A stretch of 32,000 nucleotides of DNA from Candidatus Methanoperedens sp. (GCA_041494705.1 JBGQBI010000001.1:330001-362000); one strand, 5' to 3'; shown: positions 2,265 through 17,488, counted from the stretch's first letter. Notes: generated from the sequence alone by a model not told the origin. Made by a program: numbers and translations.

Positions 2265-2265
2265 G

Positions 2266-2389: not shown

Positions 2390-2437
2390 TTTGATGAACC
2401 TGTCTAAAAAGGAATGATAATCAATGGGTTCATCAAA
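2390..2437 (+). repeat. Direct repeat copy 2, containing the real nusA start codon inside an 11-bp-stem hairpin
   Basis: 2390-2400 TTTGATGAACC is the perfect reverse complement of 2427-2437 GGTTCATCAAA. The 26-nt loop holds AAGGAATGATAATC (SD-like) and the ATG at 2424. Confidence 0.9.
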
Positions 2438-2867: not shown

Positions 2868-2895
2868 TCAAAATTATTTGGAGGAAAAAAACTAC

Positions 2896-3324
2896 ATGGG
2901 AAAAGGAATATTCGCGGCTCGCAAACTAAAGAGCGATAGTAAAAATTTCAGATGGGCAGATGGTGATTATGCAAGACGGGCTCTTAACCTGGACGTAAAG
3001 GCAGACCCTCTCGGGGGAGCGCCCCAGGCACGAGGTATTGCGCTTGAAAAAGTCGGAATTGAGGCAAAACAACCAAATTCAGCTATACGAAAATGCATAC
3101 GCCTTCAGCTTATCAAGAACGGGAAACAAATATCGGCATTTTGCCCCGGTGACGGCGCGATCAATTTCATTGATGAACACGATGAAGTAATCGTGGAACG
3201 GATAGGCGGCAGAATGGGCGGTGCTATGGGAGATATCCCGGGCGTACGCTGGAAAGTGGTTGCTGTGAACAACGTGAACCTGAGAATGCTTGTTCTTGGC
3301 AAGAAGGAAAAACCGGTGAGATAA
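2896..3324 (+). CDS. rps12: 30S ribosomal protein S12 (uS12)
   Basis: [12 protein letters not shown]... with the conserved [31 protein letters not shown] prefer ATG 2896 (GGAGG at 2879-2883) over the TTG at 2878 given by the ORF track. Confidence 0.93.
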
Positions 3325-3325
3325 T

Positions 3326-3886
3326 ATGCAAAAATTATTCGGGAAATGGGATTTTACTGAAGTTGAGGTTAAAGACCCAAGCGTCAAAGGCTATATCAAT
3401 CTCTTACCGATCGTTATTCCGCACTCCGGCGGCAGGAATGCAAAACAGCAGTTCAGTAAATCGACATATAACATCGTTGAGCGGCTTGTCAATAAGATAA
3501 TGCGTGAAGAAAACAACACGGGGCAGAAGATAACGGTTATCAATAATATTAAGGAAGCTTTTGAAATCATCAATAAGAAAACGGGACAGAATCCCGTGCA
3601 GATGCTTGTGAATGCGATAATAAACGCAGGGCCAAGAGAGGAAACTGTACGATTGCAGTACGGCGGTATCGCAGTTCCGAAATCCGTGGACACAGCGCCC
3701 CAGCGCCGTGTGGATACGGCGTTGCGGCTCATAGCCGAGGGGGCGCAGAAGGCGTCTTTCGGCACAAAGAAGGCGCTTTCGAGCGCTCTTGCAGATGAGA
3801 TAATCGCAGCAGCCAACCATGACGTTAAAGGATACGCCATGGGCAAGAAGGACAATATCGAGAGAGTTGCGAAGGCGGCGCGGTAA
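3326..3886 (+). CDS. rps7: 30S ribosomal protein S7 (uS7)
   Basis: 186 aa. NAIINAGPREETVRLQYGGIAVPKSVDTAPQRRVDTALR is a typical archaeal S7 sequence. The gene starts 2 nt after the S12 stop. Confidence 0.93.
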   Translation: MQKLFGKWDFTEVEVKDPSVKGYINLLPIVIPHSGGRNAKQQFSKSTYNIVERLVNKIMREENNTGQKITVINNIKEAFEIINKKTGQNPVQMLVNAIINAGPREETVRLQYGGIAVPKSVDTAPQRRVDTALRLIAEGAQKASFGTKKALSSALADEIIAAANHDVKGYAMGKKDNIERVAKAAR

Positions 3887-3891
3887 AATCG

Positions 3892-3927
3892 CATAACCTC
3901 AGGGTTATGTGATACTTTTTTTTATTT
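3892..3927 (+). terminator. Hairpin plus oligo-T after rps7
   Basis: CATAACC (3892-3898) pairs with GGTTATG (3903-3909) around loop TCAG. A T8 run at about 3916-3923 and more T follow. Confidence 0.5.
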
Positions 3928-4062
3928 TCCCATCCGGTTCATACCGTACTCACTTATAAAAGCATTTTTCCTTATCCCGTAATGTTTTTCCGGTTTTCAA
4001 AGTGTTTATATAGGATAGAATAATAGAGAACCAAAATTTCCAATAAAAGAGGTAAATCATAT

Positions 4063-6252
4063 ATGGGCAGAAGAAAGAAAATGGTCGAGCGTGTGACGGT
4101 GCTGATGGATAAACCCGAGTTTATCCGCAACATCGGAACAGTGGCGCATATCGACCACGGTAAAACAACATTCTCAGATAACCTGCTCGCAGGAGCCGGC
4201 ATGATTTCAAAAGAGCTGGCAGGCGAGCAGTTATTCATGGACTTTGATGAAGAAGAACAGAGACGTGGAATTACCATTGATTCTGCAACGGTCTCAATGG
4301 TCCACGAATATGATGGCAAGGAATACCTTATCAACCTTATCGATACGCCGGGACACGTTGACTTCGGCGGCGACGTTACACGCGCGATGAGAGCCGTTGA
4401 TGGCGCGGTTGTGCTGGTTGACGCGGTGGAAGGACCGATGCCGCAGACCGAGACCGTATTGCGGCAGGCGCTTCGTGAGAACGTAAAGCCAATTCTTTTC
4501 ATTAACAAGGTTGACAGACTTATTAATGAGTTAAAGCTCACTCCGGAGGACATGCAAATGCGTCTGGGGCTTGTCATTGATAAAGTCAATAAGATAGTTA
4601 AAGGTCTGAAGCCTGATCAGTATGATGACCTGAAGCTGGACCCTGTAGTTGGAAAAGTTGCATTCGGGTCAGCCCTTAATAACTGGGCAATCAGCATTCC
4701 TTATATGAAGAAGACTGGCATCGGATTTAAGGAAATTATCGAATTATGCCAGGCTGAAAAGCAGAATGTACTTGCTGAAAAATGTCCGCTTCATGTTGTA
4801 ATGAATGACATGATCATACGATTCCTTCCAAGCCCAGTCCAGGCACAAAAAGAGCGAATAAAAGTCATCTGGCACGGCGATAAGGAGAGCGAAATCGGAA
4901 AATCCATGATAGAAGTGGACAGGAACGGCAAGGTAGCTCTTATGATAACCGATATCACCACCGACCCGCATGCAGGTGAAGTGGCAAGCGGAAGGCTTTT
5001 CTCCGGTACTCTTGAGAGGGGTAAGGAAATTTACATTTCAGGAATGCCCCATCCTAACAGGATACAGTCAGTAGGTCTCTTCATGGGTCCTGAGCGAATT
5101 GAGTGCGATAAAATCCCTGCCGGAAATATCGTAGCAGTAACCGGTTTGACTGATGCGATAGTGGGTTCGACAGCCTCTACAGATAAAAGCATGACGCCAT
5201 TTGAGAGCATAAGACATGTCAGCGAGCCCGTAATGACCGTAGCGGTCGAAGCAAAACACATGAAAGACCTGCCAAAACTGGTTGAAGTATTAAGGCAGGT
5301 CGCAAAAGAAGACCCCACACTTAAAGTAATGATAAACCAGGAAACAGGAGAGCATTTGCTGGCAGGAATGGGTGAACTTCATCTTGAGGTTGTTGCAGGC
5401 AGGATACAGCGCGACAAACATGTTGAGATTACAACATCAAAGCCGCTTGTAGTATACAGGGAAACAATCTCAACTCATGCCGGGCCTGTAGAAGGGAAAT
5501 CCCCTAACCGGCATAACAGGTTTTATATCGAAGTGGAACCGCTCGGGCAAAATGTTGTCGAACTTATCAAGAATAATGAAGTTTCAATGAGGCAACCTGA
5601 AGTTGAGCGCAGGGACATTCTCTTGAAAGTAGGTTTTACCAAGGATGAAGCGAAGGGAATTACCCATATCTATGAGACCAATATGTTTATCGATATGACA
5701 AAAGGTATCCAGTATTTAAATGAAACAATGGAACTCATACTCGAAGGCTTTGAAGAAGTCATGAAGGCCGGACCGCTGTCAAGAGAACCTGTAATGGGAG
5801 TCAAGGTAAAATTGATGGATGCCAAACTCCACGAAGATACAATCCACAGGGGACCGGCGCAGGTCATCCCGGCGTCAAGACAGGCAATCCAGGCTGCAAT
5901 GCTCATGGCAGGAGCTACGCTCCTTGAACCATTCCAGAAAGTATTCATCCATGTTCCCCAGGACCAGATGGGCGGCGCGATGCGTGAAATGCAGGGAAGG
6001 CGCGGTTCCATACTTGATATGAAATCAGAAGGCGATACCACAATTATCGAGGCCAAGGCGCCTGTTGCGCAGTTGTTCGGATTTTCCGGCGATATACGCT
6101 CTGCAACCGAAGGCAGGGCAATGTGGAGCACGGAATTTGTGGGATTTGAACCCATACCCGGGAACATGCTCAATGATATCGTGATGGATATCAGGAAACG
6201 CAAAGGATTGAAACTCGAATTGCCAAAACCGAGTGATTTCATCAGTCCCTGA
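4063..6252 (+). CDS. fusA: Translation elongation factor 2 (aEF-2)
   Basis: 729 aa with G-domain motifs [17 protein letters not shown] and NKVDR. The diphthamide-site context [15 protein letters not shown] is present. Confidence 0.97.
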
Positions 6253-6326
6253 ACAACGCAAAGTTTAAAAACAAAAACAACAATACGAACACAAAACATA
6301 TCCTAAAAAATTAAAGGAGAAATATT

Positions 6327-7595
6327 ATGGCAGAGAAACCACATTTAAATTTAGCAGTTATCGGGCATATTGACCATGGGAAATCAACTCTCGTAGGAAG
6401 ATTATTGTTTGAAACTGGCGCGGTACCACCGCATATTATAGAAAAGTATAGAGAAGAAGCAAAAGCGAAAGGAAAAGAATCCTTCGTCTTTGCATGGGTC
6501 ATGGACTCTCTTAAGGAAGAGAGGGACAGGGGTATCACAATCGACGTGGCTCACCAGCGATTCGATACCGCAAAATACTATTTCACGATAGTGGATTGTC
6601 CCGGTCACAGGGACTTCGTCAAGAACATGATCACAGGCGCCTCACAGGCGGACGCAGCCATTCTGGTATGCGCTGCTAAAGAGGGTGTCCAGTCACAGAC
6701 AAAAGAACACGTGTTTCTTGCAAGGACGCTGGGTATTACCCAGTTAATCATAGCAATCAACAAGATTGATGAAGTCAACTATGACAAGGCACGATATGAT
6801 GCGGTTAAAACCGAGGTCAGCACCCTTCTTAAAATGGTCGGCTATAAACCGGATGAAATGAACTTCATCCCTACGTCAGCTTTCAAAGGCGATAACCTTG
6901 CCAAGCCAAGCGAGAATACCAAATGGTATACAGGACCGACATTGCTGGCATCTCTTGATATGTTGAAAATGCCAGAGAAACCCACGACATTACCACTTCG
7001 CATTCCTGTCCAAGATGCTTACACCATATCAGGTATCGGAACAGTTCCGGTAGGTAGAGTTGAGACCGGAGTAATGAAGCCAGGTGATAAAATAATATTC
7101 ATGCCGGCAAAAGCTGTTGGTGAAGTAAAATCAATTGAAATGCATCACCAGGAGATCAAGGAAGCGGTACCTGGCGATAACATAGGATGGAACGTTAGAG
7201 GTGTTGAGAAGAAAGATATCAGGCGCGGAGACGTCTGCGGACATGTTAGCAAACCGCCAACAGTTGCGGAAGAATTCACTGCACAAATTGTAGTACTGCA
7301 GCACCCGTCAGCAATTACCATTGGTTATACGCCCGTCCTGCACTGCCATACAGCACAGGTTGCAGGCACGATCACAGCGATATTAAAGAAACTTGATCCA
7401 AAGACCGGCCAGACGGCTGCAGAAAATCCCGACTTCATAAAAGCCGGAGATGCCGCAATTGTGACGATCAAACCGGCAAAACCATTGTGTATCGAAAAAG
7501 TGAAAGATATTCCTCAGCTCGGTCGCTTTGCGATACGGGATATGGGAATGACCATTGCAGCAGGCATGGTTCAGGACATTAAGGCGAGAATTTAA
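6327..7595 (+). CDS. tuf: Translation elongation factor 1-alpha (aEF-1alpha)
   Basis: 422 aa with [17 protein letters not shown] and NKID. AGGAG SD upstream. Confidence 0.97.
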
Positions 7596-7629
7596 TTCTC
7601 GTTCTTTCTCTTTTTAAAACGGAGTTAAA

Positions 7630-7941
7630 ATGGTCCAAAAGGCAAGAATACGTTTATCAGGAACAAGTCCTGTTACACTTGATGGGATATGTTCCCAGGT
7701 AAAAGACATAGCAATAAAAACCGGAGTAAATATCTCCGGTCCGGTTCCCCTTCCAACCAAGAAACTGGTGGTTCCGTGCAGGAAAAGCCCGGATGGCGAG
7801 GGGAGCGCAACGTGGGACCACTGGGAGATGAGAGTGCACAAAAGGCTCATCGACCTTGATGCTGATGAGCGGGCTTTGCGCCAGTTAATGCGCATACAGG
7901 TGCCAAAAGATATCAGTATCGAAATAGTCCTGACGACTTAA
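7630..7941 (+). CDS. rps10: 30S ribosomal protein S10 (uS10)
   Basis: 103 aa, [18 protein letters not shown]...HKRLIDL. Conserved position after tuf. Confidence 0.93.
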
Positions 7942-7942
7942 A

Positions 7943-7980
7943 AATGGTTAGTTTTAACCATTTTCATATTTTTATTTTTT
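7943..7980 (+). terminator. Hairpin plus T-runs ending the rpoA-to-rps10 transcription unit
   Basis: AATGGTTA (7943-7950), loop GTTT, then TAACCATT (7955-7962), a perfect 8-bp stem. TTCATATTTTTATTTTTT follows. Confidence 0.55.
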
Positions 7981-7992
7981 AACATTCATAAG

Positions 7993-8003
7993 TTTTAATA
8001 TTA
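7993..8003 (+). promoter_or_regulatory. Candidate TATA box for the pilin-like operon (possibly a leaderless transcript)
   Basis: TTTTAATATTA is centred about 26 nt upstream of the GTG at 8024. No SD-like element lies in between. Confidence 0.3.
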
Positions 8004-8023
8004 TTGAACGCTTAATTAAAGTT

Positions 8024-8527
8024 GTGAAAAACGAGAAAAGCGATTCAGCCCAAGTAACTATAGATTATATCACAGGCATCGGGATATTTCTACTGGCTGT
8101 TATTTTTGTATTCCAGTTCGTTTATGGTTTGTTCGTGCCCTTCCAGTCGGGCTCGGATAAGGCGACGCTTGCCGCGGACAGGGCAGGAACCGTACTTGTT
8201 GAACGTATGCTTCATGCAGATAAAGCAAGTGAGTTGAATGTCATAGACCAGGGCAAATTATATTATTTCAATAATTCGAGATTGAATTATTACAACCCGA
8301 CTAACTATAATGCCGCGCTTCGGGAAATCGGGCTGTTCAGCAATGAATCCGTTTTTGATATGAATGTAACGGTTGCCAATCTTACTAATCTAAACAAACC
8401 GATGAACCAGAGCGGACCTGCGCTCCCCGAAACCACCGATATCGGGCAGACTAAACGCCTTGTATTGATCGTAAATTCCTCCACGGGCTATAATGAAACT
8501 GCTATCCTTTCAGTGAGGGTCTGGTAA
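8024..8527 (+). CDS. Pilin-like protein 1 (class III signal peptide-like N-terminus, secreted glycoprotein candidate)
   Basis: 167 aa, GTG start. The N-terminus MKNEKSDSA/QVTIDYITGIGIFLLAVIFVFQFVYGLF is a short charged leader, then Ala-Gln, then about 25 hydrophobic residues. About 7 N-X-S/T sequons. 1-nt overlap with the next gene. From memory it resembles the haloarchaeal DUF7287-type N-terminus; not searched. Confidence 0.6.
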   Translation: MKNEKSDSAQVTIDYITGIGIFLLAVIFVFQFVYGLFVPFQSGSDKATLAADRAGTVLVERMLHADKASELNVIDQGKLYYFNNSRLNYYNPTNYNAALREIGLFSNESVFDMNVTVANLTNLNKPMNQSGPALPETTDIGQTKRLVLIVNSSTGYNETAILSVRVW

Positions 8528-9108
8528 TGTTTGATGATAAAGCCCAGATGCATACCCTGGAGGGCGTGGCTGCTGCTACAATAATGCTTCTTGTCATAGT
8601 TTATGCCATAGACGCGACCTCGATGACGCCGCTTACTTCTTCAACCGCAAACGTGCATGTGGAAACCGAGCTTCAGGTGCTCGGGCAGGATATTTTAGGG
8701 GGGCTGGATTATGCCGAGCCTGGATATAATTCAAAGCTTAAGAATGATGTATTGAGGTGGAATGGTAGTGAATATACCTGGAATGGAACAAATTATACAG
8801 ATAAGTTAAATACTGCAAATCCTCCACTTAACAATAACCTGACAAACATCACGAACGCTATTTTAGTCACGCAGGGCATTGCCCATAATGTGGAGCTGAC
8901 CTTTCTTGCGAACAATGGGACTACTTATACAACCCAGCGAATGATATACAACGGCGACCCCTCAGAAAACGCTGTGATTGTGTCAAGGAAAATCGTATTG
9001 CATAGCAGTGATAATCCAAATAAGAATAATACTCTATTAACTGATATCAGTCCCTCAACCGACCTATACAATATCGTTGATGTAAAACTTATTTTATGGA
9101 GAATGTGA
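8527..9108 (+). CDS. Pilin-like protein 2
   Basis: 193 aa. MFDDKA/QMHTLEGVAAATIMLLVIVYAI recalls the AQ-HTLE-type motif of DUF7288-like proteins (from memory). About 7 sequons. Coupled to both neighbours. Confidence 0.6.
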   Translation: MFDDKAQMHTLEGVAAATIMLLVIVYAIDATSMTPLTSSTANVHVETELQVLGQDILGGLDYAEPGYNSKLKNDVLRWNGSEYTWNGTNYTDKLNTANPPLNNNLTNITNAILVTQGIAHNVELTFLANNGTTYTTQRMIYNGDPSENAVIVSRKIVLHSSDNPNKNNTLLTDISPSTDLYNIVDVKLILWRM

Positions 9109-9863
9109 TGGGAATAATAAAAAACGAGGATGCTCAGTTTATGCTGCTTGCAGGTTTCATTATTGCTATCGGACTTGTAATAACCACGGTAATGCTCAAT
9201 AATATCATATTCGAAAGCAATATGGCAGGGGAAGCAGGAGGAGACCCCATAAAATATGATATAGTGAACCTGATGCGTATCAGCGGGGATGAAATGAAAA
9301 GCGCTTACAGGAATGCAACTGCACTTGGGGGAAATGATACACAAAAGAGAAGTAATTTTATCAATCAGACACAAAATTTCAGCGCAAACCTGCCCAAGCT
9401 GTACGCGCTGCATGGGGAGGGTGTGAATGTGAGCTGGGATATAAGCAACTGGAACACCACTACTCCACGCTATGCGAATTTCACAGATAACGGGACTGCA
9501 AATGGCGCAACGAACTGGACAGTTGTGGAAAGTGTTAATAATGCAACGATAGCCGTCAATATAACTGCAATAACATCCCCCTTTAATATAAGTATTACAA
9601 ACGCAACAAAAACTTGGCAAATAAACTTCACTTCAATAGGGAATCGCACAATTAATAATGCTGATATCAAGGCAAATATAACATCAGCATATAATATCTC
9701 ATTCGTAAACGGTGCAAATGCGTATGGCAACTACAGCATCAACGGCACAGCATCAGGCAGAGGCTTCATCCGCGCCCGCGATTACATCCTTTACTCAACA
9801 GTAACCCTTTCCACCAGCATTATGCGCGCCAGTATCACAATTCCTGTTTCAGTGCCGTGGTGA
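9096..9863 (+). CDS. Pilin-like protein 3, extremely sequon-rich
   Basis: 255 aa; the start may instead be ATG 9108, overlapping the upstream TGA by 1 nt. N-terminus ...IIKNEDA/QFMLLAGFIIAIGLVITTVMLNNIIF. About 19 N-X-S/T sequons by hand count. Confidence 0.6.
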   Translation: MENVMGIIKNEDAQFMLLAGFIIAIGLVITTVMLNNIIFESNMAGEAGGDPIKYDIVNLMRISGDEMKSAYRNATALGGNDTQKRSNFINQTQNFSANLPKLYALHGEGVNVSWDISNWNTTTPRYANFTDNGTANGATNWTVVESVNNATIAVNITAITSPFNISITNATKTWQINFTSIGNRTINNADIKANITSAYNISFVNGANAYGNYSINGTASGRGFIRARDYILYSTVTLSTSIMRASITIPVSVPW

Positions 9864-10336
9864 AACCTATGAATCAAAAAAGTCTCCTGAAAAATGAGGA
9901 TGCAGTATCTATTACGCTAGGTTTCATTCTCATTTTATTCATTACAGTGCTGGTTTTCTCTGCAACCATTCTTTCTTTTTATACGCTCACTTTGAACTCC
10001 CAGAAGGCGGCAATGAGGGAAAGTTTTGATATCCTGGGAAGCGGATTTGCTGCAAGAGTAAACTCCATGGATACCCTCGTAAATATAACCAAATCAAACG
10101 GGGGCGCTGTGAACAAACTGGAATACGATTTTTCAATTCCCGCTTCCATTGCAAACGAGGAATATGGCATCAATATAACCAGGGAAAGGATATTTCTGGA
10201 TGCGGAAAATGATGCAAAAGCCTGGATACCTTTCAATTCTTCCTATAACATAACTGAGCAGATATACAGCAATGCGCAGGACTATACACTGAGGTACGAT
10301 AACAACAATAATTCAATGAAAATTAAACAGCAATGA
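9857..10336 (+). CDS. Pilin-like protein 4
   Basis: 159 aa; alternative start ATG 9869. N-terminus ...LLKNEDA/VSITLGFILILFITVLVFSATILSF. ATGA overlap with the next gene. Confidence 0.6.
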   Translation: MVKPMNQKSLLKNEDAVSITLGFILILFITVLVFSATILSFYTLTLNSQKAAMRESFDILGSGFAARVNSMDTLVNITKSNGGAVNKLEYDFSIPASIANEEYGINITRERIFLDAENDAKAWIPFNSSYNITEQIYSNAQDYTLRYDNNNNSMKIKQQ

Positions 10337-11079
10337 AATCCATTAAACTTCTTTCCTCGGAAGATGCAGTCTCTGAAGTAGTGGACTTTGTAACAATCCT
10401 CGGGTTACTGGTGTTATCCATCGGGATTATAGGAGTGGCAGGCTACCCGATAATAAAGAATGCGCAGGAGGCAAACCACATAGAAAATACCAAGCAGAGT
10501 TTTATCGTGCTGGCAAATAACGTCAATAAAGTTGTGATTGGGCAGGCGCCTTCACAGAGCGTTGAGCTGAAGATGTACGGCGGGTCGCTGAGTGTCACGG
10601 GAAGCAGCACGATAAACATTACAGCAAATAATTCAGCCGGTCTAAGAATACCCATTTTAAATGATACTCAAATGCGCAGTATTGAAAGTGTTGTAGGGGA
10701 AACTGTCGTAGCTTATGAGGGCACAGGAGTATGGGCCAAGTATCCGAACGGCAACACGATACTTGTTTCAAAGCCGCTTATTACCAACCAGAGCAATGTG
10801 CTCGTTATTCCTATCGTAACCATAGGAGGGATTTCATCAACAGGCGGCAGCGGCATGAGCAGGGTTACGGCTAAAGGTGTGCCGCGTGTGGTTTTCTATA
10901 AGAATGTAAGCAATATCATTGTAACAATCAACAGCACTTACTCAAAGGGATGGGAGAATTATTTTGGTAATGTGATGGCATGGAGTTTCTGTATATCCGG
11001 CGAATGCACCGCAAAACTTGATACTAAGAACATTGATGTATATATATTGAACATCCAATTAGACACGGAGGTCGAATGA
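10333..11079 (+). CDS. Pilin-like protein 5 (archaeal type IV pilin N-terminal domain-like; paralogue of protein 6)
   Basis: 248 aa. MKSIKLLSSEDA/VSEVVDFVTILGLLVLSIGIIG resembles the PF07790/DUF1628-type N-terminus. Shares the blocks VVAYEGTGVWAKYPNGNT and LVIPIVTIGGISSTGGSG with protein 6. Confidence 0.7.
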   Translation: MKSIKLLSSEDAVSEVVDFVTILGLLVLSIGIIGVAGYPIIKNAQEANHIENTKQSFIVLANNVNKVVIGQAPSQSVELKMYGGSLSVTGSSTINITANNSAGLRIPILNDTQMRSIESVVGETVVAYEGTGVWAKYPNGNTILVSKPLITNQSNVLVIPIVTIGGISSTGGSGMSRVTAKGVPRVVFYKNVSNIIVTINSTYSKGWENYFGNVMAWSFCISGECTAKLDTKNIDVYILNIQLDTEVE

Positions 11080-12371
11080 AGCTCCTAAGCTCAGAAACTG
11101 CAGCGTCTGAAGTCATAGGTCATCTCCTTATCCTGTTCATTACTATTCTCGGAGTTGGCATGATAGCCCTGTACGGCGTGCCTGCGATTTACAGTCTTGA
11201 GGATATGGCAAATTCCAAGAATTCGGAACAGGCATTTACTGTCCTTGACTCGCGGGCGAGCAGGGTAACGCTGGGTGAGTCGCCGCTTCAGGTAACAAAT
11301 ATTAATCTCGGAGGGGGCACGGTGACGGTTGAGCCGAACAGCCCAAACAATCCGAGTTTCATGGTCGTAAATATCAATAATACTCCAATCACCGTGCCAA
11401 TGGGACGGGTAAAATATACTCTTGGGGACAGGATAGTCGCTTACGAGGGCGGCGGGGTATGGGCGCAATATCCGGGCGGGGGAACCGTTATGCTTTCTCC
11501 ACCTGAAATACATTATAACGGCTGGACATTAACACTCCCTGTAATTAATATCAATGGCAGTGCGTCTGTCGGGGGAAAGGGGACTGCGGTAGTTTCTTTC
11601 AAGAAAGTGGCAACAATAATACAGTATCCTAATGCAAGTATCGCAGGAAGGATGAACCCCGTTAACGGCAGTAAAACTGGAAAAGTCAATCTAAATATCA
11701 CGAGTGATTATTATAAGGCATGGGCTGACTATGCGAGAACCCTCAGTTATACAAATGTTTCAGTCAATGATAAGAATAAGACTACTATTATCGAGCTTGA
11801 AGTGATATCCCCGATGGGGACTTTTGTTTCCATACCCGGTAAGATAACTATGAGGGATATCAATACGAGCAACCCGGACCCTTTAATTAAATTTTATTTT
11901 AATATTTCATTTGGTTCAGGTGAAGGTGATAGAAAATGGGAAATTGAGGCAACAAATGGAAACCAAAAACTCGAAATAAAAATTGATAAAGACCATTCTG
12001 ACACTTATATCATAATCGAGTATGATAATGGATCTAAAGAAGAGAAATGGAATCATAAATTATATGATGGTAATCCGCCACCCACAATAAATATTGATCT
12101 CCTAAATCCCAGCATGAATCTTACATACCAAGGCGATGTAACTTCATGTACATGGTCACAACCTTGCAATACAGGAAGTACCAATTATAGTATCAATGAT
12201 ATAATACAGCATTACATCGTGCTTATGGGTTCGGATATTACCTTTGACACTACAGAAAGTGAAAAATTAAATAGACCCTCGTCGTCATATACACTGTTCT
12301 ACGACCCCGGTCCCGGCGCCCTCACCTACCTGCACATCACGGAGAACAGGGCTGACGTGGGGATAAGCTGA
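11076..12371 (+). CDS. Pilin-like protein 6 with a large extra C-terminal region
   Basis: 431 aa. MKLLSSETA/ASEVIGHLLILFITILGVGMIALYG. Blocks IVAYEGGGVWAQYPGGGT and TLPVININGSASVGGKG are paralogous to protein 5. About 190 additional residues are encoded by an AT-rich segment, followed by a GC-rich tail. Confidence 0.7.
   Translation: MKLLSSETAASEVIGHLLILFITILGVGMIALYGVPAIYSLEDMANSKNSEQAFTVLDSRASRVTLGESPLQVTNINLGGGTVTVEPNSPNNPSFMVVNINNTPITVPMGRVKYTLGDRIVAYEGGGVWAQYPGGGTVMLSPPEIHYNGWTLTLPVININGSASVGGKGTAVVSFKKVATIIQYPNASIAGRMNPVNGSKTGKVNLNITSDYYKAWADYARTLSYTNVSVNDKNKTTIIELEVISPMGTFVSIPGKITMRDINTSNPDPLIKFYFNISFGSGEGDRKWEIEATNGNQKLEIKIDKDHSDTYIIIEYDNGSKEEKWNHKLYDGNPPPTINIDLLNPSMNLTYQGDVTSCTWSQPCNTGSTNYSINDIIQHYIVLMGSDITFDTTESEKLNRPSSSYTLFYDPGPGALTYLHITENRADVGIS
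12315..12371 (+). repeat. Direct repeat A: last 18 codons plus stop of pilin-like gene 6
   Basis: 53/57 nt identical to 13011-13067. Both copies translate to GALTYLHITENRADVGIS*. Confidence 0.95.
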
Positions 12372-12446
12372 GCATCTGAAAACTCGCAGGAAGAAGAATA
12401 AGTTACCTTTATAAGAAAATGAACTATTGGAGGGTAGAATGAAAAA

Positions 12447-12748
12447 ATGAACAATAAACAGGAGATAACCTTAAGGCTAAATAATCTCAAACATACAATT
12501 CATGCTCTAAAAGAGGAGGCTTCAGACGGCATAACGGCTGAACAGCTTGAGAATGCTTTAAAATCAGGATTTGAAGTAATCGAAGAATATCCTGACGACC
12601 CAAGAGGAATAAGCTGTTTGTTGCTTTGTTCAATAGCTGGCAAGCCTGTCCATGTTGTCTGCGCCCCCACGAAGATGCGCTGATAATAATCACCGTCTAT
12701 ATGCCAGATGCATCAAAATGGACTGACAATTATAAAAAGAGGAAATAA
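12447..12748 (+). pseudogene. DUF4258-like toxin, disrupted by a frameshift in a C5 run
   Basis: Frame 0 (12447-12683) gives ...EVIEEYPDDPRGISCLLLCSIAGKPVHVVCAPTKMR*. The -1 frame from 12668 continues HEDALIIITVYMPDASKWTDNYKKRK* (stop 12746-12748). That matches my recollection of the C-terminus of DUF4258-family toxins that pair with YgiT/MqsA zinc-finger antitoxins. Confidence 0.6.
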
Positions 12749-12749
12749 A

Positions 12750-12992
12750 ATGAAAACATGCTATATGTGCAAGGGAGAAGTCAAATTATCGCTTGTGGAC
12801 GTGGAGGTTAAGGGCATTGTGGTAAAAGATATACCTGCTGAAGTCTGCACTCGATGCGGAGAGAAATATTTTGATACCAAAACAGCGTCGTTTATTCAGG
12901 ATATAACTGGCTGTATAAATGAGAAAAAGAGAGGATATATCGTAGATATAGTTAGTTCTGCCCGCAGCGTAAAAGATGCGATTGAAGCATAA
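12750..12992 (+). CDS. YgiT/MqsA-type zinc-finger antitoxin-like protein
   Basis: MKTCYMCKGEVKLSLVDVEVKGIVVKDIPAEVCTRCGEKYFD has CxxC...CxxC. ATG 12750 lies 1 nt after the repaired toxin stop. The ORF-track start at 12708 is probably an artefactual extension. Confidence 0.7.
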   Translation: MKTCYMCKGEVKLSLVDVEVKGIVVKDIPAEVCTRCGEKYFDTKTASFIQDITGCINEKKRGYIVDIVSSARSVKDAIEA

Positions 12993-13010
12993 ATTTAAAG
13001 CTGTGCTACA

Positions 13011-13067
13011 GGCGCCCTCACCTACCTGCACATCACAGAGAACAGGGCTGATGTGGGAATTAGCTGA
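13011..13067 (+). repeat. Direct repeat B: orphan copy of the pilin gene 3' end
   Basis: Differs from copy A only at 13037, 13052, 13058 and 13061, all third-codon positions. A stop lies 5 codons upstream in the same frame, so it is not part of a long ORF. Confidence 0.95.
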
Positions 13068-13099
13068 TTAAAAAAAGTATATCCGTTGCAACAAAAAAA

Positions 13100-13582
13100 T
13101 TACAGCGGCTCGGAAAACTCCGAGTCGAATTTACCGCTATTAATAGCTACAATTGCTTCCTTGGGTTTTAAGCCCTCAAAAGTAATCCCAAGCGGGACGC
13201 ATGAGCCAACAACCTCTTTGACAACATTCTTCAATGACTTTGCGAGGGTGTCGTTCTTCTTCATGTGCGCAATCTTTACTGCCTGTTTCACAGTAATATT
13301 GCCCACAGTCTTCGTGTTCGGCGTCCCTGAGCCTGTCTCGATCCCTGCCTCTTTCTTTATGAGTGCTGAAGTCGGCGGGGTTCCAACCTGTATCGTGAAT
13401 TGTTTCTTATCATCCACGATGACTTTAACCGGGACTTGCATTCCGCTGAACGCTTTTGTTTGCTCATTTATCTTATCTATAATCGCTTTTACATTTACGC
13501 CAAGCGGACCGAGTGAAGGACCAAGTGGCGGACCCGGGGTGGCTGAACCGCCGGAGACTAATGCTTCTACAACGCTTACCAT
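13100..13582 (-). CDS. rpl11: 50S ribosomal protein L11 (uL11)
   Basis: 160 aa, VSGGSATPGPPLGPSLGPLGVNVKAIIDKINEQT...GTPPTSALIKKEAG. Confidence 0.95.
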   Translation of the reverse strand: MVSVVEALVSGGSATPGPPLGPSLGPLGVNVKAIIDKINEQTKAFSGMQVPVKVIVDDKKQFTIQVGTPPTSALIKKEAGIETGSGTPNTKTVGNITVKQAVKIAHMKKNDTLAKSLKNVVKEVVGSCVPLGITFEGLKPKEAIVAINSGKFDSEFSEPL

Positions 13583-13603
13583 TTTTGATTTCTCCTATTA
13601 ATA

Positions 13604-14074
13604 TTATTTCTCTGCTTCCTCACGTTTCAATATTCTCACATTATCCCCGCGAACTGTGACCGGAATGGGGACAATCGACTCGAACAGTTCTACGGTAATC
13701 TCTTCATGAGTAGTATCAATCCTTGTTACTTTTGCCTTTTCTCCCTTAAAAGGACCGGAAATAAGTTCCACTATACTTCCTTCGGTTATGCCGGTTACGG
13801 TAAGTTTTGGCACGAGAAAGTGCGCGATTTCGGTAAAACTTGACTGGCCTTTCACCAGGATCCTTGCATGCGGCACGTTCTGGATGACCTGGTCAACGAC
13901 TTCAGGACCTTCTGCCTCGACAAGAACATATCCTTTTAACTCGTCCGGCGCAAGGATGGCATGAATTCCAAGGTGTTCCTTTTTTGCCACTTTCTCCATA
14001 AGGTTGGCAACGGTTCTTTCCTGGTTTGCTGTTGTCTTTACAACATATATGGCTGTTGAGGCTTCTTCATTCAT
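13604..14074 (-). CDS. nusG: Transcription elongation factor Spt5 / NusG
   Basis: 156 aa with an NGN domain (IYVVKTTANQERTVANLM) and a KOW motif (GSIVELISGPFKGEKAKVTRID). Conserved secE-nusG-L11 order. Confidence 0.92.
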   Translation of the reverse strand: MNEEASTAIYVVKTTANQERTVANLMEKVAKKEHLGIHAILAPDELKGYVLVEAEGPEVVDQVIQNVPHARILVKGQSSFTEIAHFLVPKLTVTGITEGSIVELISGPFKGEKAKVTRIDTTHEEITVELFESIVPIPVTVRGDNVRILKREEAEK

Positions 14075-14268
14075 TTAAACCAGCCCGGCATTACGGTTAT
14101 TAGTATATATATGATAAACCCTATAAATCCGACCAATAATATACCTGCCCCGGCTACTTTTGCAATTACGGTAAACTCTTCTCTGGTTGGTTTCCTTGTC
14201 AGCTTCAGCACCCGGACATATTCACCCAATCTTAAGGGAACATTACCTGGTAATTCTTTATCTTCCAC
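14071..14268 (-). CDS. secE: Preprotein translocase subunit SecE / Sec61-gamma
   Basis: 65 aa, YVRVLKLTRKPTREEFTVIAKVAGAGILLVGFIGFIIYIL. 4-nt overlap with nusG. Confidence 0.88.
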   Translation of the reverse strand: MEDKELPGNVPLRLGEYVRVLKLTRKPTREEFTVIAKVAGAGILLVGFIGFIIYILITVMPGWFK

Positions 14269-14444
14269 TATATTTCACATCCGATTTAATTATTGTAATG
14301 ATTTATATAAAAGCTACCCTAAAATAATAGCAGTCTATAATTAGACTCAACGTAAAAATAGTTTTCGATTAAACAGCAGGTCAGGTTTCTTCATACTGCC
14401 TTTACCATATAATATTTAATATTCCCTGACAATAATACGGTTTT

Positions 14445-14795
14445 ATGAAAATCCCCGCGCTCCTGTTAATGATGCTTCTTGTTTCCGGCTGCATAAATGT
14501 AAAACATGAACCAGTTTCTAATAATGCCATCTTTCCAGAATCACCTGTGGTAGATATTGCAAGAGAAGACCTTGCGCATCGATTGAATATCACCACGGAT
14601 GAAATAAAATTGGTCAAACTGGAAGTTGTGAACTGGCGTGATAGCCGTCTTGGTTATCTGGAGATGGATACGACGTATGTCCCAGTGATCACGCCGGGAT
14701 TTCGTATAATACTTGAGGCGATGAACAAAACCTACGAATACCACAGCGACTATAAGCGGGTAGTCGGGCCAAAAGAAGTCAAGGAAGTTCAATAA
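14445..14795 (+). CDS. Hypothetical lipoprotein
   Basis: 116 aa. The signal peptide has a lipobox-like LLVSGC. I recognise no family. The 3' end overlaps the convergent rhomboid gene by 7 nt. Confidence 0.5.
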   Translation: MKIPALLLMMLLVSGCINVKHEPVSNNAIFPESPVVDIAREDLAHRLNITTDEIKLVKLEVVNWRDSRLGYLEMDTTYVPVITPGFRIILEAMNKTYEYHSDYKRVVGPKEVKEVQ

Positions 14796-15601
14796 CCTAT
14801 ATAGGTCCCGGTCTTTTTGATACGGTTGCCAATGATAAGTCCTGCGATTACCCCGCTTAAATGTGCGCTGCGGGCTATCGCATCTCCTGAGCCTATGAAC
14901 AGGAGGTCAAAAAGGGCAAAAAAGATTAACGCGTGTGTTATTTTCATCGGGATAAAATAAACGTAAAGCTGTATTTGCGGAGCGATTACTGCAAGGCAGG
15001 CAAATATCCCGAACAATGCACCGCTTGCCCCGACTGCGGATGCAAAAGGATCATTCAGGACAAACAGAGTCCATATCGAATAACCTATCGCGGCAACTAT
15101 TCCTGAAATAAAAAATACAGCAAGGAACCTTTTTCCGCCAATCCTGCGTTCAAGCTCGGGTCCGATAAAGAATAAAAACATCATGTTAAATAAGAGATGT
15201 ATTGCATTTGCATGGAGGAAAATGTGGGTGACAAGAATCCACGGACGTGCTGGTATATCCGCAGGGTAAAGAGCCAGGTATGAAGTATATCCCGGGATAA
15301 TATTCTGCAAAATGAACGATATGATAGCTAATGTTAAAATCGTCAGCGAATAGTTGCTTTTTATTACAGAAATCGCCCTGGAAAATGTATTAAAACTTTG
15401 CCCCTTTCGTCTCTTCTCAACTAATTGAGGTTCATATTGATACAATTTTCCACTGTCACGAACGCGCTCTTTGTAAGATGCAAGCCCCGGGCAATCATGC
15501 GATTCAGGCAGGCGGTGGTTATAACAGAATGTTCCGCCGCAAAACTTGCATGTAAACGGCAGCGGGTCACTGAAACCGCAATAATCGCATCCTTTTGTCA
15601 T
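14789..15601 (-). CDS. Rhomboid-family intramembrane serine protease with an N-terminal AN1-type zinc finger
   Basis: 270 aa. The AN1 finger is CDYCG...CKFCGGTFCYNHRLPESHDC. Rhomboid motifs are HIFLHANAIHLLFNM, GASGALFG (catalytic Ser) and AHLSGVIAGL (catalytic His). Confidence 0.85.
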   Translation of the reverse strand: MTKGCDYCGFSDPLPFTCKFCGGTFCYNHRLPESHDCPGLASYKERVRDSGKLYQYEPQLVEKRRKGQSFNTFSRAISVIKSNYSLTILTLAIISFILQNIIPGYTSYLALYPADIPARPWILVTHIFLHANAIHLLFNMMFLFFIGPELERRIGGKRFLAVFFISGIVAAIGYSIWTLFVLNDPFASAVGASGALFGIFACLAVIAPQIQLYVYFIPMKITHALIFFALFDLLFIGSGDAIARSAHLSGVIAGLIIGNRIKKTGTYIGY

Positions 15602-15634
15602 TGTGTATCCGCCTTAATTTGGTGTTCTTTTGTT

Positions 15635-16330
15635 TTACGGGTTAATAATGTGTTTGGAAATTATTTCTTTTTTAAAAGTTCCCCTGAAGAATACATAAAC
15701 CTCAATGTCTTTGCCCTGTGCATATTCTCTCATTTTCCTGTCATACATCTGCCGGCTTTGTTTGAGATTATGCTTTTTGAAGTGTTTTTCTATCTCGTGT
15801 ATGAACCCTGATTTTTGCCTCAGGAAATCCGACTCATATTTTTTTACGGATTTCAATATTTCTTTGCACGTTTCCTCGTCTATATCGTTATGGTATAATC
15901 CGTGCCTGTTTAAACCGCCTACCTGCCTGAATTCAATGTTTCCCTCTTCATCCGGTTCCCTGTGAAGCATATAAGGAAAAATTTTGCAAATATCAGGTCG
16001 AATCGCGTAATGTTCGCACTTGCCGCCTGTATAGAATATGCATTCGCCTCCCGGTTTATTTTTGAGGGCGTAACCCATTACATAAAACCTGCCAAGATTA
16101 TCGCAAAGTTCAAAATAAGGCGCAGGGCGAAGAAAGCCGCCGCCGCAATTCTTGATTAATCTTTCTGCATCGTCATCCAGGAGAAATACATGGTCGTTGA
16201 ACTCGCTGGTACAGCATTTTCCGCAGCAATCGCATTCGAATCCAACTTCGCGGATTATCTCCATGAATTTCTCATCAGGGAAGGATGCGATTGATTGTAT
16301 CTCCTTTTCAATTTCGTCGGTTTTCATCAT
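15635..16330 (-). CDS. YkgJ-family cysteine-cluster protein (CxxCxxCC type, putative Fe-S/zinc protein)
   Basis: ECDCCGKCCTSEF plus downstream Cys residues. I place the start at the ATGATG at 16330/16327 (MMKTDEIEKE). The 47-codon upstream extension to 16471 is AT-rich low-complexity and looks like promoter sequence. Confidence 0.65.
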   Translation of the reverse strand: MMKTDEIEKEIQSIASFPDEKFMEIIREVGFECDCCGKCCTSEFNDHVFLLDDDAERLIKNCGGGFLRPAPYFELCDNLGRFYVMGYALKNKPGGECIFYTGGKCEHYAIRPDICKIFPYMLHREPDEEGNIEFRQVGGLNRHGLYHNDIDEETCKEILKSVKKYESDFLRQKSGFIHEIEKHFKKHNLKQSRQMYDRKMREYAQGKDIEVYVFFRGTFKKEIISKHIINP

Positions 16331-16534: not shown

Positions 16535-17488
16535 ATGTTGTCCCCAGGAAAAAACCTGTATTTATTATTGAATAATAAATTTGTATTGATTTTAGTACTT
16601 TTAATCTCATTATTTACTTCGATTGGTTATGCACAAGAGGATATTTCATGCTATCATTGCCATACAAAGGTGGTATCCGAATTCAGGAATAATATACATT
16701 ATCAAAAAGGTTTCACATGCGCCGATTGTCACGGAGGGAATGACCAGTCGAACTCTTCTGTGATATCCTACAGCGTGATGTCAGGAAACTTTATCGGAAG
16801 ACCCAGCAGGAACAATATAACAAACGTCTGCTCTAAATGCCATCCTCAGGAAGCAAAGGATTACAAGACAAGCATTCACTGGGCACAGATCCAAAAAGGT
16901 CATCCTGAGGCTGCAACATGCACCGATTGTCATGGAGTTCATGAAATCCGGGCAATATCCGATCCAAATTCATCCTCGAACCACCAGAACAGCCCTGCAA
17001 CATGCGCAAAATGCCACTCGAACAAGGAAATGATGAGCGCGTGGTATTATGGTATTAAAACCGACAGATTTGATACCTATAAGGAATCGTTCCACTGGCG
17101 GGCACTAAGTAAAGGTTATACGATGGTCGCCACATGTTCCGACTGCCATGGCAACCACAACACAAAAGCAACTACAGACCCTACTTCCAGCACATACCCG
17201 GAAAACCTTCCCAAAACATGCGGCAAGCCGAATTGCCATCCAGGGGTCAATTTTGATGCCAAGATAGCCTCAGGACTGGTACATGACAAAGAGTCACTCC
17301 ATACAGGTGAACTTGTTTTCAACAAGACAAATATGGCGCAGATGAAAGATTATTTCCTCGGCCCTTTCGACCTTGCGTACTGGATAGCAATATTTTTCAA
17401 GGTATTAACGACCGGGGTCATCGGTATCTTTGCAGGGATGGTTATTCTGGATTTTCTCTCGCGGCTTAAAATCCACAAGAGATGGTAA
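16535..17488 (+). CDS. Multihaem c-type cytochrome (6 CXXCH + 1 CX4CH), N-terminal signal/anchor and C-terminal TM helix
   Basis: 317 aa. Motifs are CYHCH, CADCH, CSKCH, CTDCH, CAKCH, CSDCH and CGKPNCH. The repeated H...C.DCHG.H pattern resembles doubled-CXXCH domains. C-terminal YWIAIFFKVLTTGVIGIFAGMVILDFL. Confidence 0.85.
   Translation: MLSPGKNLYLLLNNKFVLILVLLISLFTSIGYAQEDISCYHCHTKVVSEFRNNIHYQKGFTCADCHGGNDQSNSSVISYSVMSGNFIGRPSRNNITNVCSKCHPQEAKDYKTSIHWAQIQKGHPEAATCTDCHGVHEIRAISDPNSSSNHQNSPATCAKCHSNKEMMSAWYYGIKTDRFDTYKESFHWRALSKGYTMVATCSDCHGNHNTKATTDPTSSTYPENLPKTCGKPNCHPGVNFDAKIASGLVHDKESLHTGELVFNKTNMAQMKDYFLGPFDLAYWIAIFFKVLTTGVIGIFAGMVILDFLSRLKIHKRW

What the first reader, a model, noticed from the sequence alone, without database searches (positions are those of the whole stretch)
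8024..12371. Orphan six-gene operon of pilin-like (class III signal peptide) proteins with no assembly machinery, wedged between two core informational operons
Seen:
- Six consecutive + strand ORFs are joined by 1-nt or 4-nt stop/start overlaps (8527, about 9108, about 9861, 10333-10336, 11076-11079), implying translational coupling and fixed stoichiometry.
- Every product begins with a short polar leader, a small residue, then a hydrophobic stretch of about 20-25 aa: SDSA/QVTIDYITGIGIFLL, DDKA/QMHTLEGVAAATIMLL, NEDA/QFMLLAGFIIAIGLV, NEDA/VSITLGFILILFI, SEDA/VSEVVDFVTILGLLVL, SETA/ASEVIGHLLILFITIL.
- No PilB/ArlI-type ATPase, PilC/TadC-type platform protein or prepilin peptidase is visible within the window.

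Inference:
- Six different pilin-like subunits in one coupled operon, the last one bearing a large extra domain, looks more like a minor-pilin / tip or pseudopilus complex than a major-filament gene set.
- The machinery must be encoded elsewhere, or the set forms a different, uncharacterised surface structure.
- As far as I can recall, such sets (haloarchaeal DUF7287/7288/7289-like families) have no experimentally defined function.
Basis: partly seen in the sequence, partly recalled or inferred. Interest (0 to 1): 0.72.

Follow-up and report, generated by a model that had tools for sequence, protein, structure and literature searches.

The report
Detached pilin operon of archaeal pilus
This is a conserved six-gene operon for pilin-like surface proteins of a type IV pilus system in the methane-oxidising archaeon Methanoperedens; comparative genomics had already catalogued the set, and being encoded away from its assembly motor is normal, though nobody has tested its function.

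Summary
The six overlapping + strand genes (8024-12371) are real. The window is from Candidatus Methanoperedens.

The same six genes, in the same order and with similar sizes, occur in Archaeoglobi (Geoglobus) directly beside a PilB3-type ATPase, a TadC platform protein and a KaiC-like ATPase. Halobacteria have a near-identical arrangement. Makarova et al. 2016 list this arrangement in Archaeoglobus as the predicted pilin set of the euryarchaeal 'clade 2' type IV pilus system.

Each family keeps a class III signal-peptide signature. AlphaFold models of genes 2 and 5 have the long N-terminal helix plus globular domain expected of pilins. N-glycosylation sequons are about ten-fold enriched.

Lack of machinery nearby is ordinary: 0 of 80 related ATPase/TadC loci carried the core module, and Methanoperedens has at least two further unlinked paralogous sets.

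Best reading: six prepilins assembled in trans, most likely as a low-copy priming or tip complex. That mechanistic step is inference.

Verdict: a new member of a known but experimentally uncharacterised kind; moderate-to-low interest.

The parts
7941..7980 (+). Terminator-like element after the S10 stop codon: a 10-bp hairpin (7941-7964) followed by T-runs (7969-7980)
   Evidence: Sequence; RNA fold -8.7 kcal/mol, z = -4.15 against 200 shuffles. A termination role is inferred.
7993..8005 (+). AT-rich TATA-like stretch (TTTTAATATTATT) about 25 nt upstream of the gene 1 start; possible own promoter giving a leaderless or short-leader mRNA
   Evidence: Sequence only; inference from the usual archaeal TATA-to-start spacing, not tested.
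8024..8527 (+). Gene 1, 167 aa, DUF7287 (position of arCOG06117); leader MKNEKSDSA then QVTIDY (Gln +1, Asp +5)
   Evidence: Pfam 115 bits, E 5e-33. The Q-x-S/T-x-D-F/Y signature is conserved in nine other loci. It matches the +1 Gln / +5 acidic pattern of EppA-processed methanococcal pilins.
8527..9108 (+). Gene 2, 193 aa, DUF7288 (position of arCOG04652); leader MFDDKA then QMHTLEG
   Evidence: Pfam 157 bits, E 7e-46. Gln7 is invariant and Glu12 nearly so. 137 of 149 family representatives carry [GA]Q..T.E, with Arg/Lys at -2 in 106. AF2 pLDDT 83.8: N-terminal helix, break at the conserved TPL, second helix, four-stranded sheet.
9096..9863 (+). Gene 3, 255 aa (251 aa from ATG 9108), DUF7261-like (position of arCOG07777); leader ...KNEDA then QFMLLAGF; 19 N-X-S/T sequons
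   Evidence: The Pfam DUF7261 hit is below threshold (17.7 bits), but the gene at the same position in the haloarchaeal locus L018 is listed with DUF7261. [GA]-Gln plus a hydrophobic stretch is conserved. Sequons.
9857..10336 (+). Gene 4, 159 aa (155 aa from ATG 9869), DUF7266 (position of arCOG03926, 'Pilin, FlaG/FlaF/PilA family'); leader ...KNEDA then VSITLGF
   Evidence: Pfam 38.6 bits. Only product matching the reconstructed FlaFind motif at the expected site. The family N-terminus aligns with genuine Pilin_N proteins with cleavage motifs in register (hhalign probability 79%, E 1.6e-5).
10333..11079 (+). Gene 5, 248 aa, DUF7289 (position of arCOG02911); leader ...SSEDA then VSEVV (Glu +3)
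   Evidence: Pfam 91.9 bits. AF2 pLDDT 88.6, pTM 0.81: a 59-residue N-terminal helix followed by an all-beta domain. Glu15 is invariant.
11076..12371 (+). Gene 6, 431 aa, DUF7289 plus a C-terminal DUF7308 domain (second arCOG02911 position); leader MKLLSSETA then ASEVIG
   Evidence: Pfam DUF7289 88 bits and DUF7308 27.5 bits; DUF7308 32 bits on the C-terminal 191 aa alone. Same position and size as the 448-aa protein in Geoglobus (L017) and the 446-aa protein in the haloarchaeal locus L018.

Best explanation
The six genes are the pilin-subunit operon of the euryarchaeal 'clade 2' type IV pilus system. This is the set Makarova et al. 2016 list as arCOG06117, arCOG04652, arCOG07777, arCOG03926 and two copies of arCOG02911; in Pfam terms it is DUF7287, DUF7288, DUF7261, DUF7266, DUF7289 and DUF7289+DUF7308. 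In this Methanoperedens genome the operon is detached from its motor and sits between the S10 and L11 gene clusters. Shown: family membership, conserved gene order, linkage to the ATPase/TadC pair in other lineages, conserved class III signal-peptide signatures, pilin-like predicted architecture for two subunits, and strong enrichment of glycosylation sequons. Inferred: each product inserts in the membrane through its N-terminal hydrophobic helix. A class III signal peptidase then removes the 6-16 aa leader after the Gly/Ala. A PilB3-type ATPase and a TadC platform encoded elsewhere extract and stack the subunits through their N-terminal helices. Because the genes are tightly overlapped (favouring roughly equal amounts) and the last subunit carries an extra domain, the most likely product is a low-copy initiation or tip complex. 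That complex would prime a filament of a separately encoded major pilin and present gene 6 as the distal, probably adhesive, head. I put about 0.85 on the identity of the set and about 0.45 on the priming/tip-complex mechanism.
For: Pfam assignments. In Geoglobus (L017) the same six genes, in the same order and with sizes 141/188/155/131/226/448 aa, lie next to a convergent T2SSF, a PilB3_N-T2SSE-PilB3_C ATPase and a KaiC-like gene. In the haloarchaeal locus L018 (from a Halalkalicoccus protein), five genes are in the same order and the large DUF7289 gene lies directly downstream of the ATPase and TadC genes on the opposite strand. In Methanophagales (L010) the ATPase, TadC, KaiC-like and MinD-like genes lie about 1.1 kb upstream of DUF7287-DUF7288-g3. 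Makarova Table S4 lists six overlapping 'clade_2' pilin genes of 135/171/159/130/217/422 aa beside TadC, FlaI-type ATPase and RAD55/KaiC genes in Archaeoglobus profundus, with similar sets in A. fulgidus and A. sulfaticallidus. Signal signatures are conserved per family. The DUF7266 N-terminus is homologous to Pilin_N. AF2 models show a helix plus a globular domain. Sequon density is 3.9 against 0.38 per 100 aa in cytoplasmic proteins of the same window, with 56 observed against about 24 expected. Encoding in trans is normal. For the tip-complex idea: paralogous modules are followed by 1500-2000 aa Big_1/VWA proteins that have Sec-type, not class III, signal peptides. From my own knowledge, this parallels bacterial PilY1 with the PilVWX minor pilins.
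Against: No ATPase, TadC or prepilin peptidase could be shown for this genome itself. The closest stand-alone PilB3-type pair I could place taxonomically (L027) belongs to an 'ANME-2 cluster archaeon', not a named Methanoperedens. The reconstructed FlaFind motif fits only one of the six products. Neither model has a significant Foldseek match to any solved pilin, and no PDB sequence relative exists. The equivalence of the arCOG and Pfam families rests on synteny, sizes and an Archaeoglobi homologue, not on direct alignment to arCOG members. The published model treats the gene-4 family as a major pilin, which would make this a complete filament set rather than a tip complex. Translational coupling and stoichiometry are inferred from the overlaps alone.
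Confidence: 0.7

Rival explanations
1. A self-sufficient filament set. Gene 4 (DUF7266/arCOG03926) would be the major pilin that forms the shaft and the other five would be accessory subunits of that same filament, as drawn in Makarova et al.'s model for the PilB4-type system.
For: Makarova et al. label arCOG03926 'predicted major pilin' and argue that this system does not depend on PilA. Gene 4 is the smallest product, the only one matching the reconstructed FlaFind motif at the expected site, and the one whose N-terminus is detectably homologous to Pilin_N.
Against: Gene 4 sits mid-operon with overlapping or near-abutting neighbours, which does not suit a subunit needed in vast excess. Its counterparts are 595 aa with a Big_7 domain in another Methanoperedens set and 959 aa in A. 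fulgidus, which are atypical sizes for a shaft subunit. Separate PilA-like Pilin_N genes exist in Methanoperedens (L004).
Confidence: 0.22
2. Not a filament at all. The six would form a membrane-anchored surface complex (a short pseudopilus, or an anchor or stator like FlaF/FlaG, or a scaffold for surface proteins). Alternatively the N-terminal segments act as uncleaved signal anchors.
For: Five of the six products do not fit the reconstructed FlaFind motif at the expected site. The globular domains resemble no solved pilin. In gene 2 the N-terminal helix is broken after the membrane segment rather than continuous. arCOG names the gene-4 family 'FlaG/FlaF/PilA'.
Against: Gly/Ala at -1 with an invariant +1 residue is conserved from Halobacteria to Archaeoglobi, which is hard to explain without cleavage. 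The set recurs next to a T2SSE ATPase and TadC. Gene 5 has a canonical continuous 59-residue helix.
Confidence: 0.07
3. An evolutionary leftover: a pilin operon stranded after loss or relocation of its machinery, no longer functional.
For: No machinery lies within 32 kb. A toxin-antitoxin-like cassette has been inserted at the 3' end of gene 6.
Against: All six reading frames are intact. Hundreds of Methanoperedens orthologues at 46-100% identity keep the motifs. NCBI locus tags place gene 2 and gene 5 exactly three genes apart in eight MAGs. The insertion duplicated the last 57 nt, so gene 6 keeps its full C-terminus and stop codon.
Confidence: 0.02

Closest known systems
Pilin set of the euryarchaeal clade 2 type IV pilus system (Makarova et al. 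2016, Fig. 4B / Table S4), e.g. Archaeoglobus profundus NC_013741 611520-615190
   Same: Six consecutive overlapping pilin-family genes of matching order and sizes (135/171/159/130/217/422 aa against 167/193/255/159/248/431 aa); two copies of the last family, the second about twice as long; class III signal peptides. A Geoglobus locus with that architecture carries the same Pfam families as the window.
   Different: In Archaeoglobus and Geoglobus the set abuts TadC, a FlaI/PilB3-type ATPase and a KaiC/RAD55-like gene. Here it is detached and lies between the S10 and L11 clusters. Gene 3 is larger and heavily sequon-rich.
Haloarchaeal PilB4-type locus (Haloferax volcanii pilB4/pilC4 region; L018 from a Halalkalicoccus protein)
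   Same: DUF7287-DUF7288-DUF7261-DUF7266-DUF7289 in the same order, plus a large DUF7289 protein. Function is unknown there too.
   Different: The large DUF7289 gene lies directly downstream of the ATPase and TadC genes on the opposite strand. The ATPase is enlarged (753 aa). The cleavage motif is typically RGQ/RGV rather than the [NS]EDA of this window.
Methanococcus maripaludis Epd pili (EpdA/B/C minor pilins, MMP1685 major pilin, EppA peptidase)
   Same: Several pilin-like genes in an operon apart from the ATPase/TadC locus and from the major pilin gene; leaders of 5-13 aa, +1 Gln, +5 acidic residue, as in genes 1-3 here.
   Different: A different ATPase clade (clade 1) and different pilin families (DUF361). 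No homology was detected. The Epd pilins have been shown experimentally to be needed for piliation; these have not.
Bacterial minor-pilin priming/tip complexes (FimU-PilVWXE with PilY1; GspH-I-J-K of type II secretion) - comparison from my own knowledge
   Same: Four to six different low-abundance pilins from one operon, one enlarged subunit, and (in the paralogous archaeal modules) an associated non-pilin VWA-domain adhesin with a Sec signal peptide.
   Different: No sequence or fold similarity was detected. Functional analogy only.
Haloferax volcanii PilA1-6 adhesion pilins with PilB3/PilC3
   Same: Pilins encoded in trans to a clade 2 ATPase/TadC. A PilA-like Pilin_N gene also exists in Methanoperedens.
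   Different: PilA pilins are single, dispersed, interchangeable major pilins with a Pilin_N domain, not a six-family coupled operon.

Membership tests
Class III signal peptide (type IV prepilin-like) proteins | Short polar or charged leader, Gly/Ala at -1, then an uninterrupted hydrophobic stretch of about 20 aa at the extreme N-terminus | tested here: met
   All six products: leaders of 6-16 aa ending in Ala, and a single hydrophobic segment (KD 2.1-2.8) only at the N-terminus.
Class III signal peptide (type IV prepilin-like) proteins | Match to the FlaFind motif [KRDE][GA][ALIFQMVED][ILMVTAS]x3 (reconstructed from memory) | tested here: inconclusive
   Matches at the expected site only in gene 4; off-register match in gene 2; the others fail at -2 (S, T) or at +2/+3 (F, H, E). 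FlaFind itself was not run.
Class III signal peptide (type IV prepilin-like) proteins | Cleavage-site residues conserved across the family | tested here: met
   DUF7288: Gln +1 invariant; 137/149 representatives have [GA]Q..T.E; Arg/Lys at -2 in 106. The other five families keep Gly/Ala at -1 and family-specific +1 to +6 residues from Methanoperedens to Archaeoglobi and Halobacteria.
Class III signal peptide (type IV prepilin-like) proteins | Processing by an A24-family prepilin peptidase (PibD/FlaK/EppA) | not testable with these tools
Methanoperedens expresses an archaellin, flaB, which implies such a peptidase exists.
Class III signal peptide (type IV prepilin-like) proteins | Pilin architecture: protruding N-terminal alpha-helix plus a beta-rich globular domain | tested here: met
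   AF2 gene 5: helix 10-68 plus an all-beta domain (pLDDT 88.6). Gene 2: helix 4-31, break, helix 38-61, four-stranded sheet (pLDDT 83.8). The globular domains match no solved pilin. Genes 1, 3, 4 and 6 were not modelled.
Euryarchaeal clade 2 T4P pilin set (Makarova 2016, variant B) | Six-gene order arCOG06117-04652-07777/06552-03926-02911-02911 with overlapping genes | tested here: met
   Order, sizes and overlaps match Table S4 entries for three Archaeoglobus species. An Archaeoglobi (Geoglobus) locus with that architecture has the same Pfam families as the window. Direct alignment to arCOG members was not possible.
Euryarchaeal clade 2 T4P pilin set (Makarova 2016, variant B) | Genomic association with a clade 2 (PilB3/PilB4-like) ATPase and TadC | tested here: not met
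   Absent from this window, but present for homologous sets in L010, L017 and L018. Makarova et al. state that these modules also work in trans, so adjacency is typical in some lineages but not defining.
Pfam DUF7287 / DUF7288 / DUF7266 / DUF7289 / DUF7308 | Score at or above the Pfam gathering threshold | tested here: met
   115.2, 157.4, 38.6, 91.9 and 88.2 bits against cut-offs of 27-27.6; DUF7308 27.5 against 27 and 32.2 on the isolated domain.
Pfam DUF7261 (gene 3) | Score at or above the Pfam gathering threshold | tested here: not met
   17.7 bits against 27. Only positional support: the third gene of the haloarchaeal set L018 is listed with DUF7261.
Bacterial minor-pilin complexes (GspHIJK / PilVWX-PilY1) | Detectable sequence or fold homology to those subunits | tested here: not met
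   No Foldseek PDB hit at E <= 0.001 for genes 2 or 5, and no PDB sequence hit. Resemblance is in organisation only.

The most novel reading that the evidence does not exclude
Methanoperedens keeps several machinery-less, mutually paralogous pilin modules. I found the S10-adjacent set; a second six-gene set with greatly enlarged third and fourth subunits, the fourth carrying Ig-like (Big_7) domains; a five-gene set followed by a 1500-2000 aa VWA/Big_1 adhesin; and possibly one on a Borg-like low-GC element. These could act as interchangeable 'heads' that plug into one shared ATPase/TadC motor, giving the cell a combinatorial adhesin-display system for aggregate formation or partner and mineral contact. 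The S10-adjacent set would be the housekeeping version.
Probability: 0.2. Interest if true: 0.55.

Novelty: new member of a known kind. Interest (0 to 1): 0.3.

Why it matters
This pilin module is conserved from Halobacteria through Archaeoglobi to the methane-oxidising ANME lineages, yet none of its families has been tested experimentally. Methanoperedens lives in aggregates and transfers electrons outside the cell, so its surface appendages are physiologically relevant, and it carries several copies of the module with different putative adhesive heads. The practical value of this result is annotation: six 'hypothetical proteins' next to the ribosomal genes can be labelled as clade 2 type IV pilin-like subunits, and Pfam DUF7287/7288/7261/7266/7289 can be tied to the arCOG pilin families and to a PilB3-type motor. 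It does not reveal a new kind of system.

Full report
OBSERVATION. Window 8024-12371 holds six consecutive + strand ORFs of 167, 193, 255, 159, 248 and 431 aa. Stop and start codons overlap by 1 nt (g1/g2) and by 4 nt (g4/g5, g5/g6). The g2/g3 overlap is 1 or 13 nt depending on which ATG is used. The g3/g4 junction is a 7-nt overlap or a 5-nt gap; public gene calls differ on those two starts. Each product has one strongly hydrophobic segment, at the N-terminus only, after a 6-16 aa polar leader ending in Ala. Pfam scans of 36 ORFs across the window found no T2SSE ATPase, no T2SSF/TadC and no A24 peptidase. The flanks are RpoA, NusA, S12, S7, EF-2, EF-1alpha and S10 upstream, and L11, NusG and SecE downstream on the minus strand.

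ORGANISM AND FAMILIES. The gene 2 product is identical to a protein on public contigs, one of them about 2.07 Mb long, and its close relatives are named Candidatus Methanoperedens. The multihaem cytochromes and Fpo genes in the window fit that assignment. The six products score as DUF7287 (115 bits), DUF7288 (157), DUF7261 (17.7, below threshold), DUF7266 (38.6), DUF7289 (91.9) and DUF7289 plus DUF7308 (88.2 and 27.5). NCBIfam has no model for any of them.

WHAT THE SET IS. I looked up the neighbourhoods of homologues.
- In a Geoglobus (Archaeoglobi) contig, L017, the same six genes occur in the same order with the same Pfam labels and sizes of 141/188/155/131/226/448 aa. A convergent T2SSF gene (640 aa), a PilB3_N-T2SSE-PilB3_C ATPase gene (560 aa) and a KaiC-like gene follow directly.
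- In a haloarchaeal contig, L018, found through a Halalkalicoccus protein, the order is DUF7287-DUF7288-DUF7261-DUF7266-DUF7289. The 446-aa DUF7289 gene lies directly downstream of the ATPase and TadC genes on the opposite strand.
- In a Methanophagales contig, L010, the ATPase, TadC, two KaiC-like genes and a MinD/ParA-like gene lie about 1.1 kb upstream of DUF7287-DUF7288-g3.

This is the arrangement that Makarova et al. 2016 tabulate for Archaeoglobus profundus. There, six overlapping 'clade_2' predicted pilin genes (arCOG06117, 04652, 07777, 03926, 02911, 02911; 135/171/159/130/217/422 aa) sit beside TadC, a FlaI-type ATPase and a RAD55/KaiC gene. A. fulgidus and A. sulfaticallidus have similar sets. 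Their text describes it as the second type of clade 2 system, typified by the Haloferax volcanii PilB4 locus, with its own pilin set and a duplication-prone minor pilin of 250-550 aa, arCOG02911. The families occur in about 42 of their genomes. The arCOG-to-Pfam mapping is inferred from order, sizes and the Archaeoglobi homologue; I could not align arCOG members directly.

ARE THEY PILINS? Across loci from Methanoperedens, Methanophagales, Archaeoglobi and Halobacteria, every family keeps Gly or Ala at -1, charged residues just before it, and about 20 hydrophobic residues after it. Each family also has its own signature:
- DUF7287: [GA]-Q-x-S/T-x-D-F/Y, with Asp at +5.
- DUF7288: [GA]-Q-x-x-T-L-E-G, with Glu at +6.
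- Gene 3 family: [GA]-Q followed by the hydrophobic stretch.
- DUF7266: [GA]-V-S-T.
- DUF7289: [GA]-V/A-S-E-V/T-I-G, with Glu at +3.

In DUF7288 the +1 Gln is invariant. Of 149 representatives at 50% identity, 137 carry the motif, and 106 of those have Arg or Lys at -2. The +1 Gln with a +5 acidic residue is the pattern of EppA-processed pilins in Methanococcus maripaludis. The DUF7266 N-terminus aligns with genuine Pilin_N proteins with the cleavage motifs in register (hhalign 79%, E 1.6e-5). DUF7289 aligns only weakly.

The AlphaFold2 model of gene 5 is a 59-residue helix plus an all-beta domain (pLDDT 88.6, pTM 0.81). The model of gene 2 has a helix, a break at the nearly invariant Pro35, a second helix and a four-stranded sheet (pLDDT 83.8). 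N-X-S/T sequons number 56 in 1445 aa, against 15 in 3930 aa of cytoplasmic proteins from the same window and about 24 expected from composition.

Caveats: the FlaFind motif, as I reconstructed it from memory, matches only gene 4 at the expected site. The globular domains match nothing in the PDB by Foldseek or by sequence.

IS 'ORPHAN' UNUSUAL? No.
- Makarova et al. state that clade 2 ATPase/TadC modules act on pilins encoded in trans.
- The Halobacterium pil-1 locus has no prepilin gene within about 100 kb.
- Methanococcus pilus genes lie in at least four separate places on the chromosome.
- A metagenome scan with an alignment of the three ATPases returned 80 loci with 638 kb of flanking sequence, 45 of them with at least 5 kb on one side. 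None carried DUF7287, DUF7288, the gene 3 family or DUF7266; five had a single DUF7289-like gene. These ATPases are only 44-57% identical to the query, and some probably belong to the PilA-type variant.
- Methanoperedens itself has further unlinked sets. One six-gene set (172/189/554/595/239/453 aa, the fourth with a Big_7 domain) lies among housekeeping genes. A five-gene variant with a long DUF7287 is followed by a 1544-1559 aa Big_1/VWA protein. The same variant occurs in other Halobacteriota contigs. A pair of DUF7289 genes also occurs on its own.

I could not show the motor for this genome. A stand-alone MinD, PilB3-type ATPase and TadC locus with Methanoperedens-like composition (L027) belongs to ANME-2 cluster / Methanosarcinales MAGs.

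MECHANISM. Shown: family identity, synteny with the motor in other lineages, conserved signal signatures, and pilin-like architecture for two subunits. Inferred: cleavage by a class III peptidase, and assembly by a PilB3-type ATPase and TadC encoded elsewhere.

I favour a low-copy priming or tip complex with gene 6 as the distal head, for three reasons. The overlaps suggest coupled, similar expression. The gene 4 counterparts can be 595-959 aa long. The paralogous modules are followed by giant VWA/Big_1 proteins with Sec-type signal peptides, an organisation that resembles bacterial PilVWX-PilY1 (my own knowledge). The published alternative, with gene 4 as the major pilin of a dedicated filament, remains live.

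EXPRESSION SIGNALS. After the S10 stop codon there is a 10-bp hairpin (z = -4.15) and two T-runs. A TATA-like stretch then lies about 25 nt before the GTG start at 8024. This suggests the set has its own promoter, but it is inference only.

VERDICT. The set is a catalogued, widespread and experimentally untested pilin module, and its separation from the motor is ordinary. It is a new member of a known kind. Interest 0.3.

Noticed in passing
window 12315-13067: The last 57 nt of gene 6, including its stop codon (12315-12371), recur at 93% identity at 13011-13067. The two copies flank a 639-nt insert that encodes a DUF4258 protein (12447-12683) and a YgiT-type zinc-finger, MqsA-like protein (12708-12992). 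This looks like a small toxin-antitoxin cassette inserted at the 3' end of gene 6 with duplication of the target. The cassette is present in all three contigs that carry the window's gene 2 protein.
   Followed up: partly
L012:7203-11661 (whole locus 1-16319): A six-gene set of the same type (125/189/316/141/229/489 aa, the last with DUF7305) lies on a 34.9% GC contig. That contig is coded mostly on one strand and is full of small ORFs with no family, plus a UvrD helicase, a dCTP deaminase, an AAA+HNH protein and a subtilisin. This profile resembles the Borg elements (32-35% GC, single-strand coding) or the HMp plasmids of Methanoperedens, so an extrachromosomal element may carry its own pilin set.
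   Followed up: partly
L004:10947-15581, L006:12344-17086, L016:2355-8381, L008:12667-18789: The five-gene paralogous module (long DUF7287, DUF7288, a roughly 165-aa protein, DUF7266, DUF7289) is regularly followed by a 1500-2040 aa protein with Big_1 and VWA domains and a Sec-type, not class III, signal peptide. This is a candidate pilus-associated adhesin.
   Followed up: partly
L027:8056-13549 and L028:1179-5778: In ANME-2 cluster / Methanosarcinales MAG contigs, a MinD gene directly precedes a PilB3-type ATPase whose N-terminus carries a long acidic extension with ETTPEKE-like repeats. The extension is longer in L028 than in L027. A 675-aa TadC follows. The MinD link fits Makarova et al.'s prediction for clade 2 systems.
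   Followed up: partly
L017:2345-9503: The Geoglobus locus carries a second type IV pilus gene cluster directly upstream of the six-gene set: a Pilin_N gene, DUF5371, a GvpD/KaiC-like ATPase, a response regulator, a T2SSE ATPase, two split T2SSF genes and a 404-aa protein with a faint DUF7289 match. The DUF5371 + Pilin_N pair also occurs next to the Methanoperedens five-gene module in L004.
   Followed up: no
Archaeoglobus fulgidus NC_000917 678040-684847 (Makarova Table S4): In A. fulgidus the six-gene pilin set is divergently adjacent to the ribosomal protein genes L7Ae, S28e and L24e. That is a second case of this set sitting beside translation genes; probably coincidence, not examined further.
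   Followed up: no
window 16535-20558: Three multihaem c-type cytochrome genes, one with a PGF-CTERM sorting signal, and a cytochrome b gene lie 4-8 kb downstream of the pilin set. These are typical of extracellular electron transfer in Methanoperedens. No link to the pilin set was tested.
   Followed up: no
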